A DNA stretch of 64,000 bases from the human T2T-CHM13v2.0 reference genome, Homo sapiens, in the NCBI RefSeq assembly GCF_009914755.1, contig NC_060935.1; one strand, given 5' to 3'. The notes beneath the pieces were generated by a model. The model was not told the origin of the DNA, did not search any database, and saw nothing but the letters and a program-made list of their open reading frames with translations. The position numbers and the translations under genes are program-made. Positions 23,311 to 28,082 of this stretch are shown in pieces; position 1 is the stretch's first letter; each line of letters begins with the position of its first letter.

Positions 23311-25603
23311 ATTCAACAACCAGTATTTAGTGCCTGCTGTGTTCTGCAGGCCCTGCCATAGGCGCTTGATACAGCGGTGCATAGCGTATGAAAAAGATCT
23401 GTCCTGGTAAGCTTACATTCTTACAGCAGACGATAAGTATTTTAAGTATTAAGTAAATAAGGTTATTTCACGTATAAGGTGTTAAATGCTATGAAAAGAA
23501 AAATAAAACAGGGTAACGTGGTGTGTCCTGTGTTGAGCCCCTGGGGGACGCAAGAGGGAGATTAGCTTGCCTACAAGGTTATTGGTGGAGGTAGGGAGAA
23601 CTTAAAGATCAGCACCTGTAAGAAAGTGAAGGAAGCAGGAATTTGTAGGCAGAGGAAGAAGTTGGCCTGCAAAACAGTTGCAGCAGAGGCCTTGACCAAT
23701 CCCAAGGCATGCTTGGAGCCTAGGATGACCCTTCAGAGTAGTTCCACATTAAAGCAAGGGGGCCAGAAACTCTTATCCTTGCATTGACCAGTCATGGATA
23801 CAGGCTACACCTGGGGAGGAGCTGTGATTTTTTTTTTTTTTTTTTTTTTTTTTGGCAAGACTGCTTCCCTCGGTGGAGGGCGGCCCCCGGAGAAGGACTC
23901 AGTTGTGAATCATCAGTAACCAACTCCAGAAGCTGAGGGAATGACTGTCTAGGCCCTGAGGGGGTGTCTGGACCACAACATCAGCTATGTTGCAGTTAGA
24001 GTATCATTTAAACAAGTCTGAATTCAATGAATTTTTACTGAGGACTTTTCAGACACCATAGGTGTCTGAAAAACATTTCATAAACATAGACATAAAGATC
24101 CTAAGCAAATATTAGCAAATCAAATCCAGCAATTTATAAAAGGATTAATACATCATGATGAAGTAGGGTTTATCCCGGGAATGCAAGGTTGGTTTTGCAT
24201 TCTGAAATCAAACAATGTAATTTACCTTAAAAGAGAAAAGCCTTCATTGGAAGAAATAATAAAAATTTTTTTTAAAGAAAAGCTATGATTATGTTAAAAA
24301 ATACAGATAAATCTATTGGCAAAAATAAACACCTCTTCTGACCAAAATACTTAGCAATCTAGGAATAGAAGAGAAATTTTCCAGTCTGATGAAGGGTTCA
24401 AATTATCAATCAGGGTTTGGACAAGAGAAATCACATATGTACTATTTTAATTAAATGTTTTATTTGAGAAAATTGGACACTCATATGCAGTTGTAAGGAA
24501 TAATATGGACAGATTATATGTACCCTTTACCCAGCTTCCCCCAATGGAAACACCTTGCAAAACTGTAGTACAATATCACAACCAGGATACTGACATTGAT
24601 AAAGTCAAGATGCAGAACATTTTCATCACCACAAGGATCCCTCATGTTGCTCTTTGTAGTTACACTGCTTCTTAATTCCTGGCAAACGTCTGTGTTGTAT
24701 AGATGGAATCATACAGAGTGCAACCTTTTAGAATTTTTTTTTCACTCAGCATAATTATCTGGAGACTCATCCAAGTTGTTGCATGTATCAATAGCGCATT
24801 TCTTTTTATTGATGAGTAGTAGTCCATAGTATGAATGTACCACAGTTTGTTTAGCCATTCACTCACTGAAGAACACCTGGGTTGTTTCCAGTTTTCAGAT
24901 ATTCTGAGTAAAGGTACTGTAAACATTTGTGTACAGGTTTTTGTGTGAACTAAGTTTTCATCTCTCCGGAATAAATGCCCAGGAGTGCAGTTGCTGGGTT
25001 GCATGGTAGTTACATGTTTCGTTTTTTAAGAAACTGCCAAAATGCTTTCCAGAGCGGCTGTACCATTTTACATACCCACCACCAGTGTATGAATGATCAA
25101 GTTTGTCTGCATCCTCATGAGCATTAGCTTTTATTTTAGCCATTCTAATAGGTGTGTGGTGGTGTCTTATTGTGATTTTAATTTGTATTTCCCTATTGAC
25201 TAATGATGTAAGACATCTTTTCATGTGCTTATCTTCCATGTGTATATTCCCTTCAGTGAAATGTCTGTTCATGTCTTTTGCCCATTTTCTAATTAATTGT
25301 TTTTCGTACTGTTGAGTTTTGAGATATCTTTATATATTCTAGATATTAGCCCTTTGTCAAATATGTGCTTTGTAAACAGTTTCTCACAGTGTATGGCTTG
25401 TATTTTCATCCTCTTAACTGTATCTTTTGCAGAGCAAAAGTTTGTCATTGTGATAAGGTCCAATTTATCCACTTTTCCTTTTATTGATGCTTTTGGTTTA
25501 ATAACTCTTTGCCCAGCCCTAGATCCTGAAGACATTCTACTGCCTATTTTTTTAAAGATTTTTTATTTTACATTTAAGTCTATGATACATTTTGAGTTAA
25601 TTT

Positions 25604-25853
25604 TTTATTTATTATTATTATACTTTAAGTTTTAGGGTACATGTGCACAATGTGCAGGTTAGTTACATATGTATACATGTGCCATGCTGGTATGCTGCAC
25701 CCATTAACTCGTCATTTAGCATTAGGTATATCTCCTAATGCTATCCCTCCCCCCCCCCCACAAAATTGACAAATGGGATCTAGTTAAACTAAAGAGCTTC
25801 TGCACAGCAAAAGAAACTACCATCAGAGTGAACAGGCAACCTACAAAATGGGA
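25604..25853 (-). mobile_element. Short young L1PA insertion with 5' inversion (twin priming)
   Basis: reverse L1PA 3' end 25604-25760 joined to forward ORF2 piece [20 protein letters not shown] 25761-25853; TSD GAGTTAATTTTT at 25594 and 25852. Confidence 0.88.
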
Positions 25854-26083
25854 GTTAATTTTTAAAATAGGTGTAAAACTTTGGTTGTTGTTGCGGTTGT
25901 TCTTTTTTGTTTGTTTGCATATACATGTTACATTACGCCAACACCATTTGTTCAAAAGGCTATGTTTCCTCCATTGAATTGCTTTTATGCCTTTGTCAAA
26001 ACCAGTTGGACATATTCGTGTGATCCTATTTCCAGTTTCTGTATTCTGTTCCATTGATCTATGTGTTTATTCCTCTACCAATA

Positions 26084-28082
26084 CAGGCTGAGCATCCGTA
26101 ATATAAAAATCTGAAATCTGAAATGCTCCAAAATCCTAAACTTTTTGAGTGCTGACATTATGCCACAAATGGAAAATTTCATACCTGACCTTATGTGAGT
26201 TGCAGTCAAAACACAGGTGCACAACACCCAGTTCATGCAACATCCCCAATGGGAAAAAAGACCCCCCCAGCTCTCTTCTGCTGCAGTTTTTCTGCTCACA
26301 CCTGGATTTCCCCATGCATTCCCACAAAAAGTAATTAAATGGCATGCGTGCAGGCTGGACACGCCAACAACAGGTTTCCCACAATGCCCCACATGGGGCC
26401 AAGACCTGTGTGCATTACTCATTGCATTTTTTTGCTTATTCTCTGCTGTGTGGTATAAATATATTGTTGAAAATGTCAAAAAGACCTAAAGATACCCCTG
26501 TGAATATCAGTGATAAGAAAAAGAGGAAGCATTTATGTTTATCTATAGCACAGAAAGTCAAGTTGTTGGAGAAACTGGACAGTGGTGTAAGTGTGAAACA
26601 TCTTACAGAAGAGTATGGTGTTGGAATGACCACCATATATGACCTGAAGAAACAGAAGGATAAACTGTTGAAGTTTTATGCTGAAAGTGATGAGCAGATA
26701 TTAATGAAAAATAGAAAAACACTTCATAAAGCTAAAAATGAAGATCTTGATCGTGTATTGAAAGAGTGGATCCGTCAGCGTCGCAGTGAACACATGCCAC
26801 TTAATGGTATGCTGATCATGAAACAAGCAAAGATATATCACAATGAACTAAAAATTGAGGGGAACTGTGAATATTCAACAGGCTGGTTGCAGAAATTTAA
26901 GAAAAGACATGGCATTAAATTTTTAAAGACTTGTGGCAATAAAGCATCTGCTGGTCATGAAGCAACAGAGAAGTTTACTGGCAATTTCAGTAATGATGAT
27001 GAACAAGATGGTAACTTTGAAGGATTCAGTATGTCAAGTGAGAAAAAAATAATGTCTGACCTCCTTACATATACAAAAAATATACATCCAGAGACTGTCA
27101 GTAAGCTGGAAGAAGAGGATATCAAAGATGTTTTTAACAGTAATAATGAGGCTCCAGTTGTTCATTCATTGTCCAATGGTGAAGTAACAAAAATGGTTCT
27201 GAATCAAGATGATCATGATGATAATGATAATGAAGATGATGTTAACACTGCAGAAAAAGTGCCTATAGACGACATGGTAAAAATGTGTGATGGGCTTATT
27301 AAAGGACTAGAGCAGCATGCATTCATAACAGAGCAAGAAATCATGTCAGTTTATAAAATCAAAGAGAGACTTCTAAGACAAAAAGCATCATTAATGAGGC
27401 AGATGACTCTGAAAGAAACATTTAAAAAAGCCATCCAGAGGAATGCTTCTTCCTCTCTACAGGACCCACTTCTTGGTCCCTCAACTGCTTCTGATGCTTC
27501 TTCTCACCTAAAAATAAAATAAAATACAGTGTACAGTAACCTTTTAGTCAAAACAGCATCATACTTGGAAACTGAAAGCCTACTGTTATTTGTTATTGTT
27601 GCTTAACAGCTGATACAGGTATTCTGGTGACACTACTGTGCTGGCTTACTTAACCTGAATACACTATTTTTTTCGTTGTATTACTGGTATGTCATTTTTT
27701 TTACTGTTAAGTACTTATGTGTGAATAAGTGTAAAAAAATGATTGCTTATCGGTAACATATAAATTCAGAATCAGGAATGATGGTGATGCCAAACAATCA
27801 CAGATCGTCCACATGGGTGGCGGAGATGTTAACACCTTTGCTTTCTGATGGTTCAGTGTATCCACACTTTGTTTCATGCCAAAATTATTTAAAATATTGT
27901 ATGAAATTACCTTCAGGCTATGTGTATAAAGTATATATGAAACATAAATGAACTTTATGTTTAAACTGGGATCTTATCCTCAAGCTATCTCATTGTGTAT
28001 GTGTAAATATTTCAAACTAAAAAAAAAAAAAATCTGAAACACTTCTGGTCCCAAGCATTTCAGACAAGGGATATTCAACCTG
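26084..28082 (+). mobile_element. Tigger4 (Zombi) pogo-family DNA transposon, internally deleted, both TIRs present
   Basis: TA|CAGGCTGAGCATCCGTAAT...AAATCTGAAATGCTCCAAAATC on the left; ...GGTCCCAAGCATTTCAGACAAGGGATATTCAACCTG on the right (reverse complement CAGGTTGAATATCCCT); host L1 resumes after 28082. Confidence 0.88.
26473..27522 (+). CDS. Intact 349-aa Tigger4/Jerky-like transposase-derived DNA-binding protein lacking the DDE domain
   Basis: MSKRPK...KKKRKH (NLS); LSIAQKVKLLEKLDSGVSVKHLTEEYGVGMTTIYDLKK (CENP-B N/psq HTH); LDRVLKEWIRQRRS..PLNGMLIMKQAK..STGWLQKFKKRHGI (Tc5 HTH); A at -3; open upstream to ATG 26344 (392 aa). Confidence 0.75.
   Translation: MSKRPKDTPVNISDKKKRKHLCLSIAQKVKLLEKLDSGVSVKHLTEEYGVGMTTIYDLKKQKDKLLKFYAESDEQILMKNRKTLHKAKNEDLDRVLKEWIRQRRSEHMPLNGMLIMKQAKIYHNELKIEGNCEYSTGWLQKFKKRHGIKFLKTCGNKASAGHEATEKFTGNFSNDDEQDGNFEGFSMSSEKKIMSDLLTYTKNIHPETVSKLEEEDIKDVFNSNNEAPVVHSLSNGEVTKMVLNQDDHDDNDNEDDVNTAEKVPIDDMVKMCDGLIKGLEQHAFITEQEIMSVYKIKERLLRQKASLMRQMTLKETFKKAIQRNASSSLQDPLLGPSTASDASSHLKIK

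What the first reader, a model, noticed from the sequence alone, without database searches (positions are those of the whole stretch)
23388..26090. Promoter capture: splice acceptor assembled from an L1 pyrimidine tract plus the transposon TIR
Seen: donor CTG|GTAAGC at 23406/7, ~270 bp from the LIPT2 start codon on the opposite strand. At the insertion junction, antisense-L1 TGTGTTTATTCCTCTACCAA + target TA + TIR CAG|G forms a canonical acceptor at 26086/7. A second candidate is CTCTCTTCTGCTGCAG| at 26286. AATAAA overlaps the stop codon (27513-27523). Inference: the insertion itself created the exon, wiring the ORF to the LIPT2 CpG-island promoter and giving broad expression coupled to a mitochondrial lipoylation gene.
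Basis: partly seen in the sequence, partly recalled or inferred. Interest (0 to 1): 0.72.

Follow-up and report, generated by a model that had tools for sequence, protein, structure and literature searches.

The report
Tigger transposon exon behind LIPT2 promoter
An old Tigger transposon that landed inside an L1 repeat became the second exon of LIPT2-AS1, with its edge and the L1 flank forming the splice site, and it kept an intact DNA-binding gene; the gene is already described, but how the splice site arose is not.

Summary
The donor (23406/7) and acceptor (26086/7) are in the sequence and match the one intron of RefSeq LIPT2-AS1.

Exon 2 is a 1,999-bp Tigger/pogo element (26084-28082) nested in an older antisense L1. 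The acceptor is composite. The branch-point-like site and pyrimidine tract come from the L1, TA is the target site, and the AG is bases 2-3 of the terminal repeat. These parts match the majority state of 29 L1 relatives and 20 Tigger copies, so the site probably existed at insertion.

New here: this copy alone lacks 708 bp (236 codons, in frame), which removes the whole DDE nuclease domain. Its 349-codon ORF is intact, whereas each of 20 other copies carries at least 8 disabling lesions. Nonsynonymous change is about halved.

Lemur and galago proteins share the deletion junction, so it predates their split from the human lineage.

Already in print (PMC12679747): the ORF is translated, Tigger-derived and lacks a DDE domain.

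Against efficient "wiring": the leader is 980 nt with 14 upstream ATGs, and the RefSeq 3' end is at 27971, not at the stop-codon AATAAA. Broad, LIPT2-coupled expression was not testable.

Verdict: a new member of a known kind (transposon exon trap, domesticated transposase).

The parts
22600..23260 (.). LIPT2 CpG island, used in both directions
   Evidence: GC 0.75, CpG o/e 0.95, 88 CpG. LIPT2 exon 1 (22671-23157, minus strand) and the LIPT2-AS1 start at 22813 both lie in it (hub table).
22813..23406 (+). LIPT2-AS1 exon 1 (594 nt, non-coding leader, overlaps LIPT2 exon 1 by 345 nt)
   Evidence: Hub table. It holds 3 upstream ATGs and no AATAAA or ATTAAA.
23404..23412 (+). 5' splice site CTG|GTAAGC
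   Evidence: It is the only GT[AG]AG in 22813-23600, and the first AATAAA after the transcript start lies 96 nt downstream at 23502. The surrounding 331 nt are single-copy in the genome.
23407..26086 (+). Intron (2,680 nt), largely L1 fragments
   Evidence: L1 ORF2-like translations on the minus strand.
25880..26083 (-). Left flank: old L1 ORF2 in antisense, supplying the branch-point-like CATTGAT (A at 26057, 29 nt before the AG) and the pyrimidine tract 26060-26081
   Evidence: Maps to ORF2p residues 893-948. Matches 29 L1 relatives, with the tract differing from their majority at 2 of 22 positions, both C>T. Branch-point motif.
26082..26083 (.). Target-site TA (the L1's own TA)
   Evidence: By eye, 13 of 20 other copies have TA before the 5' end and 14 of 20 after the 3' end. 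This copy has no second TA at 28083.
26084..28082 (+).
   Evidence: It matches many genomic copies at 74-82% identity. Terminal inverted repeats run from 26084 and end at 28082.
26085..26086 (+). 3' splice-site AG, which is bases 2-3 of the 5' terminal repeat
   Evidence: and the hub table (exon 2 starts at 26087).
26270..26286 (+). Second acceptor candidate, specific to this copy
   Evidence: The other copies instead have a YAG about 8 nt upstream (14 of 20), which reads TTCTG here.
26473..27522 (+). ORF of 349 codons (MSKRPKD...). An in-frame upstream ATG at 26344 would give 392 aa.
   Evidence: The ATG at 26473 is the family's start, kept by 15 of 20 copies by eye. PMC12679747 proposes the same start.
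26521..26925 (+). DNA-binding region: CENP-B_N (26521-26676) and HTH_Tnp_Tc5 (26737-26925)
   Evidence: Pfam E 4e-7 and 1e-14. CENP-B 1hlv by sequence and as the top fold hit, E 1.3e-3.
26988..26989 (+). Junction of the in-frame deletion (708 majority columns, 236 codons) that removed the DDE_1 domain
26989..27519 (+). C-terminal tail of the transposase (acidic stretch plus a conserved helical block)
   Evidence: Aligns to residues 410-552 of a full-length relative, 55% identity. No Pfam or PDB match. Helices 265-281 and 287-326 at pLDDT 54-71.
27513..27523 (+). Two AATAAA hexamers overlapping the stop codon
   Evidence: An A-rich AATAAA-like stretch is seen here in most other copies.
27943..27971 (+). 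CATAAA variant hexamer and the RefSeq 3' end (27971), still inside the element
   Evidence: Hub table. CATAAA is the majority state of the family.
28083..28237 (-). Right flank: the same old L1 continues
   Evidence: ORF2p residues 869-887. The next codon, 28085-28083, stands where residue 888 falls. Alignment to L1 relatives.

Best explanation
LIPT2-AS1 is a Tigger/pogo transposase remnant that is expressed as a 3'-terminal 'trapped' exon of the antisense transcript from the LIPT2 CpG island.

Shown:
- An old L1 lay antisense about 3 kb from the island.
- A Tigger element inserted at a TA between L1 ORF2 codons 888 and 889, in the sense direction of the divergent transcript.
- The junction reads: L1 branch-point-like site, L1 pyrimidine tract, TA, then CAG|G of the terminal repeat. 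This is the annotated acceptor.
- The annotated donor is the only strong one downstream of the island and precedes the first AATAAA.
- The mRNA ends at a poly(A) site inside the element.
- The copy lost 236 codons in frame, covering the whole DDE nuclease domain. It kept the two helix-turn-helix DNA-binding domains and the C-terminal tail under selection.
- The same junction is present in lemur and galago proteins.

Inferred:
- The acceptor worked from the time of insertion.
- The protein acts as a DNA-binding factor without nuclease activity. It could, for example, bind Tigger terminal repeats as a regulator or repressor.
For: Splice sites equal the RefSeq intron (hub table).

Element ends and TA.

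The L1 flanks are colinear in ORF2p and match uninterrupted relatives, at least 26 of 29, with the pyrimidine tract changed only by 2 C>T.

The flank matters. Of 17 other copies with enough flank, only 1 has TACAG plus at least 12 of 16 pyrimidines.

Deletion:
- 20 of 20 other copies carry 608-781 nt where this one has none, and the gap is 708 majority columns.
- DDE_1 was found in 4 of 4 open fragments of that stretch. In a full-length relative it spans residues 219-399, inside the gap.
- Only the window itself spans the junction among 40 scored of 229 candidates.

Selection:
- This copy has 0 stops and 1 non-triplet indel, a 4-nt one in the A run at the stop. The other 20 have 0-9 stops and 4-15 frameshifting indels each, with a mean of 14.7 lesions and a minimum of 8.
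- pN is 0.067 against 0.117 pooled (p=2.7e-6). pS is 0.155 against 0.184 (not significant). In the DNA-binding part pN is 0.049 against 0.110.

Orthologue-like proteins in Pongo, Callithrix (named LIPT2-AS1), Lemur and Otolemur share the junction.

Peptides and conservation across primates are reported in PMC12679747 (passages read).
Against: - The RefSeq mRNA has a 980-nt leader with 14 upstream ATGs, one of whose ORFs overlaps the main start. This transcript is a poor template for the protein.
- Amino-acid constraint is modest. pN/pS is 0.43 against 0.64 for the decayed copies, Fisher p=0.11 on the ratio. The C-terminal half is barely below neutral, 0.62 against 0.73.
- The acceptor has purines at -4, -6 and -7, and only 12 of 16 pyrimidines.
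- No RNA-seq, CAGE or other species' DNA could be examined. Use at the time of insertion, synteny of the primate proteins and the age of the donor are therefore inferred.
- The 20 comparison copies were the best long matches, not a random sample.
- Only one TA flanks the element, where a duplicated pair is expected.
Confidence: 0.75

Rival explanations
1. The acceptor motif was present at insertion, but the exon came into use only later. Possible triggers are a later gain of the donor at 23407, or the loss of the element's own internal acceptor-like site.
For: 14 of 20 other copies keep a YAG behind a C-rich tract about 190 nt before the ATG. This copy reads TTCTG there and has a new CAG 8 nt further on. 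Published cases mostly use an acceptor inside the transposon, just upstream of the ORF (8 of 9; bioRxiv 10.1101/2020.05.07.082677, passages read). The donor lies in single-copy DNA of unknown age.
Against: All parts of the junction acceptor match the majority state of their relatives, so no later change is needed to explain it.
Confidence: 0.25
2. The protein is made mainly from other transcripts than the RefSeq model: an internal or nearer start site, or the 26286 acceptor. The LIPT2-island transcript would then be largely a non-coding by-product of divergent transcription.
For: 980-nt leader with 14 upstream ATGs. 26286 passes the same acceptor filter. Few peptides are reported, mostly from cancer lines.
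Against: The only curated transcript uses 22813 and 26087 (hub table). No other promoter-like feature was identified here, and none was looked for with eukaryotic tools.
Confidence: 0.2
3. The ORF is open by chance in a neutral transposon relic, and LIPT2-AS1 is only a lncRNA.
For: RefSeq calls the human gene a lncRNA (hub table). The constraint on the C-terminal half is weak.
Against: The Poisson chance of no lesion is about 4e-7 at the mean load of the 20 other copies, and 3e-4 at the lowest load. pN is about halved. Full-length proteins with the same junction exist in four other primates. Peptides are reported.
Confidence: 0.03

Closest known systems
PGBD3 in CSB/ERCC6 intron 5: piggyBac as a natural 3'-terminal exon trap (PMC2268245, passages read)
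   Same: A transposase ORF is flanked by an acceptor and a poly(A) site and spliced to an upstream host exon. It has been kept in primates for tens of millions of years.
   Different: In PGBD3 the acceptor is wholly inside the element, 7 nt before the ATG, and the product is an in-frame fusion protein. Here only the AG is transposon sequence, the branch point and pyrimidine tract come from a neighbouring L1, and exon 1 adds no coding sequence. The upstream ATG at 23388 reads across the junction but stops at 26091.
Transposase capture / host-transposase fusion genes (Cosby et al., bioRxiv 10.1101/2020.05.07.082677, passages read)
   Same: A DNA transposon supplies the splice site and a DNA-binding domain, and the DNA-binding part is preferentially retained.
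   Different: No host protein domain is fused. What is captured is a promoter and a non-coding first exon of a divergent transcript. The acceptor is composite rather than present in the transposon consensus alone.
Sense-oriented L1 and Tigger elements as gene traps held in check by SAFB proteins (PMC10901741, passages read)
   Same: A sense Tigger body with an A-rich ORF (38.8% A here), an upstream acceptor and an internal poly(A) site. That paper also shows an acceptor created by an antisense repeat (AluJb) next to an exonised element.
   Different: Those are cryptic events seen after knock-down. This one is the constitutive annotated structure of a conserved gene.
Domesticated pogo/Tigger genes: JRK, JRKL, TIGD1-7, CENPB, POGK, POGZ (list recalled; JRK likeness of 40% from PMC12679747)
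   Same: CENP-B_N plus HTH_Tnp_Tc5 DNA-binding domains of a pogo transposase kept under selection.
   Different: As I recall, most of those keep a DDE-derived domain, though I did not check this. Here the whole DDE_1 domain is cleanly deleted in frame and the natural C-terminal tail is joined to the DNA-binding part.
New genes from divergent promoter transcription, U1 site before poly(A) site (Wu and Sharp 2013, Almada et al. 2013; recalled, not read; only a search listing of citing papers seen)
   Same: An antisense transcript from a CpG island, with one strong donor that precedes the first AATAAA by 96 nt.
   Different: The coding potential was imported ready-made by a transposon rather than arising de novo.

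Membership tests
pogo/Tigger DNA transposon (Tc1/mariner superfamily) | Terminal inverted repeats beginning CAG | tested here: met
   The 5' end CAGGCTGAGCATCC and the 3' end ...TTCAACCTG are imperfect reverse complements. 13 of 20 other copies start CAG, and the majority of the two ends are reverse complements.
pogo/Tigger DNA transposon (Tc1/mariner superfamily) | TA target-site duplication on both sides | tested here: inconclusive
   TA is present at 26082-3 but absent after 28082 (CCTG followed by CCCTGCAG). The L1 alignment shows a single TA in total. Other copies mostly have both (13 and 14 of 20). A later 2-bp loss is the simplest reading.
pogo/Tigger DNA transposon (Tc1/mariner superfamily) | Transposase with CENP-B_N, HTH_Tnp_Tc5 and DDE_1 domains | tested here: not met
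   This copy has the first two only. DDE_1 is present in the homologous stretch of other copies, 4 of 4 fragments, and in full-length relatives. It is therefore a deleted derivative of such an element, not an autonomous one.
Tigger4 (Zombi) family in particular | Match to the Repbase/Dfam consensus | not testable with these tools
   No repeat library was available. The name's existence was confirmed in PMC5753468 (passages read). The family found here has a majority length of about 2.72 kb.
Domesticated transposase gene | Intact ORF while paralogous copies have decayed | tested here: met
   No disabling lesion (0 stops, and one 4-nt indel in the A run at the stop), against at least 8 lesions in each of 20 copies.
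Domesticated transposase gene | Purifying selection on the protein | tested here: met
   pN 0.067 against 0.117 (p=2.7e-6) with pS not different. The effect is strongest in the DNA-binding part and modest overall.
Domesticated transposase gene | Orthologues at the same locus in several species | tested here: inconclusive
   Proteins with the same deletion junction are found in Pongo, Callithrix (named LIPT2-AS1), Lemur and Otolemur. Synteny could not be checked because no other eukaryote genome was held.
Domesticated transposase gene | Evidence that the protein is made | not tested
   Taken from PMC12679747: 3-5 peptides in PeptideAtlas (passages read). Its supplementary figures were not seen.
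Transposon 3'-terminal exon trap | Host donor, acceptor at or in the element, poly(A) site in the element | tested here: met
   The RefSeq exon 2 (26087-27971) lies wholly inside the element (26084-28082) (hub table).
Host-transposase fusion protein | Host coding sequence fused in frame to transposase sequence | tested here: not met
   No reading frame from exon 1 runs into the ORF. The frame from 23388 stops at 26091.

The most novel reading that the evidence does not exclude
The outer edge of every pogo/Tigger insertion (target TA plus the CAG|G that starts the terminal repeat) is a ready-made 3' splice-site core. It needs only a pyrimidine-rich flank, such as antisense L1, to make the whole element a terminal exon at once. 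This may be a general route by which Tigger DNA-binding domains are captured. DDE-less relatives of this same protein, with a different deletion junction, sit in the SMIM8 gene of squirrels, degu, pocket mouse and pika. One of them is fused to SMIM8. That pattern would mean the same DNA-binding module was captured at least twice, perhaps as a repressor or regulator acting on the thousands of Tigger repeats.
Probability: 0.25. Interest if true: 0.6.

Novelty: new member of a known kind. Interest (0 to 1): 0.38.

Why it matters
This locus gives a base-by-base account of how a selfish element became an expressed host gene without any new mutation in its splice site. One repeat (L1) supplied the branch point and pyrimidine tract. 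The next repeat (Tigger) supplied the AG, the ORF and the poly(A) site. A neighbouring CpG island supplied transcription.

It also shows that the missing nuclease domain is a clean in-frame 236-codon deletion that predates the lemur-human split. This sharpens the case for annotating human LIPT2-AS1 as protein-coding. It also points to a testable function: a DNA-binding protein without nuclease activity.

The gene and its coding potential are already published, so the gain is mechanistic detail rather than a new kind of system.

Tried and rejected
1. Apparent frame shifts. A first majority-rule pass suggested that the ORF leaves the ancestral frame at 27052 and 27127. Inspection showed this came from counting long missing stretches as gaps. 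With these treated as missing, the ORF stays in the family's frame throughout and the majority has a 1,767-nt open frame.

2. Glires relatives.
- I asked whether they are orthologues of LIPT2-AS1. The squirrel protein's best human match is this ORF, at 89% and 72% in two pieces.
- The Glires proteins share this copy's state at only 9 of 38 comparable positions, mostly low-support columns where all clades agree. They share the family state at 23.
- A quick tree left primates, Glires and Anolis in an open fork (the careful search did not finish).
- The question is unresolved.

3. C-terminal half. It has no Pfam family, no PDB sequence match and nothing usable in the ESM Atlas.

4. Structure. The AlphaFold2 model from 17 sequences is poor (mean pLDDT 52.9), and only the DNA-binding part reaches 66-85. 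Foldseek gave CENP-B 1hlv at E 1.3e-3 and nothing for the tail.

5. RNA families. Rfam found none in 22000-29000.

6. Literature on a Tigger repeat end used as an acceptor. Searches returned two papers each, three different papers in all. I read passages of two of them, and neither describes it. PMC12679747 contains no occurrence of 'promoter' or 'bidirectional'.

7. Not available or not done.
- No splice-site scoring model (MaxEnt, SpliceAI) was at hand, so only simple counts are given.
- No complex prediction was run.

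
Full report
**What was claimed and what is there**

All four are in the sequence at those coordinates.

The two splice sites are exactly the single intron of RefSeq NR_171028.1, LIPT2-AS1, with exons 22813-23406 and 26087-27971. The stated refuting condition, no spliced molecule joining the two, is therefore not met as far as a curated cDNA-based model can show.

As motifs the sites are fairly selective:
- 23407 is the only GT[AG]AG in 22813-23600.

**The element and its flanks**

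The stretch 26084-28082 matches many places in the window's own genome at 74-82% identity (40 of 4,097 candidates were scored).

I fetched twenty long copies and aligned them. They define a family with these features:
- a majority length of about 2.72 kb;
- terminal inverted repeats that start CAG (13 of 20 copies);
- flanking TA (13 of 20 at the 5' side and 14 of 20 at the 3' side, by eye);
- a 1,767-nt open frame in the majority.

The name Tigger4 could not be tested because no repeat library is at hand. PMC5753468 only confirms that Zombi (Tigger4) exists and carries part of a coding region.

The DNA on both sides is one old L1 in antisense:
- The right flank translates to ORF2p residues 869-887. 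Its last codon stands where residue 888 falls. The left flank begins with three codons (Y, W, stop) that precede its ORF2p match, which runs from 893 to 948. Each match is weak on its own, but they are colinear.
- Joined in a script, the flanks align without a gap to related L1 copies that are not interrupted, at least 26 of 29 by eye.
- The L1 flank is more diverged from its relatives' majority (K2P 0.20) than the Tigger copies are from theirs (median 0.175; this copy's non-coding parts 0.145). This fits the nesting order.
- Only one TA is present in total, so the copy expected after 28082 is missing.

**Origin of the acceptor**

The 22 nt before the TA differ from the majority of the 29 L1 relatives at two positions, both C to T, so the pyrimidine content is unchanged.

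A CATTGAT that fits the branch-point consensus YNYURAY (recalled) has its A at 26057, 29 nt before the AG. No AG lies in between. The L1 majority reads the same at this site.

TA is the L1's own dinucleotide, and the AG belongs to the family's terminal CAG. Every part of the acceptor therefore matches the majority state of its own repeat family.

The flank matters. Among 17 other copies with enough flank, only one combines TACAG with at least 12 of 16 pyrimidines.

One point complicates the story. 14 of 20 other copies have a YAG behind a C-rich tract about 190 nt before the start codon. This is the kind of internal acceptor that Cosby et al. found in 8 of 9 captured transposons. Which site was used early on cannot be told from one genome.

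**The promoter side**

The annotated start at 22813 lies in a CpG island (22600-23260, GC 0.75, CpG o/e 0.95). It sits inside LIPT2 exon 1 on the other strand, so the two transcripts overlap head to head by 345 nt (hub table).

Exon 1 has no AATAAA or ATTAAA. The first AATAAA comes 96 nt after the donor. This fits the recalled model in which a U1 site ahead of the first poly(A) signal lets a divergent transcript elongate.

The donor region is single-copy, and its age is unknown.

**The ORF**

Pfam finds CENP-B_N and HTH_Tnp_Tc5 and no DDE domain. CENP-B 1hlv is the only PDB match.

This copy alone lacks a stretch between 26988 and 26989:
- All 20 other copies carry 608-781 nt there.
- The gap is 708 majority columns, or 236 codons, so the frame is preserved.
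- Open fragments of that stretch in four other copies all match DDE_1.
- In a full-length relative, DDE_1 spans residues 219-399, within the gap.
- The part after the junction aligns to that relative's residues 410-552 at 55% identity.
- In a junction-spanning search, only the window itself crosses the junction among 40 scored of 229 candidates. 37 match the right side only and 2 the left side only.

The ORF is maintained:
- It has no stop and one non-triplet indel, 4 nt in the A run at the stop. The 20 other copies have 0-9 stops and 4-15 frameshifting indels over the same columns, with a mean of 14.7 lesions and a minimum of 8.
- Against the leave-one-out majority, pN is 0.067 compared with 0.117 pooled for the others (p=2.7e-6). 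pS is 0.155 compared with 0.184 (not significant).
- In the DNA-binding part pN is 0.049 against 0.110. In the tail it is 0.085 against 0.125.
- The constraint is real but modest. The pN/pS contrast itself (0.43 against 0.64) has p=0.11.
- The comparison copies were the best long matches, not a random sample.

**Relatives elsewhere**

A protein search returned 70 hits among 1,364 candidates.
- Proteins from Pongo (97% identity), Callithrix (94%, named 'uncharacterized protein LIPT2-AS1'), Lemur catta (84%) and Otolemur (78%) share the same junction. The deletion therefore predates the split of the two primate suborders. Synteny was not checked.
- Squirrels, marmot, degu, pocket mouse and pika have DDE-less relatives of 241-305 aa (the pika protein is 241 aa and lacks the first ~28 residues) with a different, wider junction.
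- The rodent ones are mostly named 'small integral membrane protein 8 isoform X1'. One sequence, P0032, carries the DNA-binding part fused to the SMIM8 domain.
- Whether this is a second capture is open.

**What is already in print**

PMC12679747 (2025; I read the passages on LIPT2-AS1, not its supplements) makes these points:
- It lists LIPT2-AS1 as one of the clearest unannotated coding genes.
- It describes the gene as Tigger-derived, 40% identical to JRK in its first half, and without the DDE domain.
- It reports conservation across primates.
- It reports 3-5 peptides, mostly from cancer lines, plus frontal cortex.
- It proposes the same start as 26473.

The paper does not mention the promoter or the splice structure. 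It has 0 occurrences of 'promoter' and of 'bidirectional'.

Transposons acting as terminal exon traps are known from PGBD3, from host-transposase fusions and from SAFB-suppressed Tigger and L1 gene traps. The SAFB paper includes an acceptor made by an antisense Alu beside the exonised element. Two searches for a Tigger repeat end used as an acceptor found nothing more specific.

**Points against an efficient 'wiring'**

- The RefSeq mRNA has a 980-nt leader with 14 upstream ATGs. One opens an 84-codon ORF that overlaps the main start.
- The annotated 3' end is 27971, after a CATAAA that is the family's majority state. It is not at the AATAAA over the stop codon.
- Expression breadth and co-expression with LIPT2 could not be examined.

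**Structure**

The model is poor overall (mean pLDDT 52.9). The DNA-binding part is helical at pLDDT 66-85. Residues 152-262 are predicted disordered. Two helices, 265-281 and 287-326, cover the block that is conserved between this protein and the full-length relatives, at pLDDT 54-71. Foldseek's best hit is CENP-B bound to DNA, at E 1.3e-3.

**Verdict**

The functional claims about expression are untested.

The locus is a domesticated, nuclease-less Tigger DNA-binding protein, expressed as a trapped terminal exon of the LIPT2 divergent transcript. It is a new, well-resolved member of a known kind.

Two details are, as far as my searches show, not in print:
- the composite L1/TA/terminal-repeat acceptor;
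- the exact in-frame 236-codon deletion, measured against the family.

Noticed in passing
Proteins P0006, P0008, P0010, P0011, P0014, P0015, P0025, P0032 (no window coordinates): Rodents and pika have DDE-less relatives of this protein (241-305 aa; the pika protein is 241 aa and lacks the first ~28 residues; 75-82% identical in the aligned part) with a different, wider deletion junction. The rodent ones are mostly annotated as an isoform of SMIM8. P0032 is the DNA-binding part fused in frame to the SMIM8 domain (PF14937). This may be a second, independent capture of the same module.
   Followed up: partly
Proteins P0029, P0033 (Anolis), P0031 (Homarus), P0036 (Trichuris), P0052 (Ischnura): The DNA-binding half is 86-87% identical to full-length DDE-bearing proteins of Anolis lizards and 70% to one of a lobster. 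In a quick tree the Anolis proteins fall in the same open fork as the primate and Glires proteins. This is a possible sign of horizontal spread of this Tigger family.
   Followed up: no
Proteins P0016, P0017, P0019-P0022, P0024, P0030: A separate, well-supported clade of intact 502-572-aa 'jerky-like' proteins with a full DDE_1 domain occurs in squirrels, beaver, guinea pig, mole rat, pocket mouse, tree shrew and sifaka. They are 62-66% identical to this ORF. I did not examine whether they are a conserved gene or young elements.
   Followed up: no
window 28080-28086: The expected second TA of the target-site duplication is missing after the 3' terminal repeat. The flanks rebuild the L1 with a single TA. 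This looks like a later 2-bp loss.
   Followed up: partly
window 26270-26290: 14 of 20 other copies have an acceptor-like YAG behind a C-rich tract about 190 nt before the start codon. This copy has lost it and has a 5-nt deletion and a new CAG 8 nt downstream.
   Followed up: partly
window 25594-25863: A young-looking L1 3'-end fragment sits inside the old L1. One part is antisense and one sense, as after twin priming. It is bracketed by a direct repeat GAGTTAATTTTT at 25594 and 25852. This was read by eye.
   Followed up: no
window 28240-28525: An Alu-like insertion with an A tail interrupts the right-hand L1 flank (read by eye).
   Followed up: no
window 23828-23853: A run of 26 T lies in the intron. 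It may be the tail of an antisense retroposed sequence.
   Followed up: no
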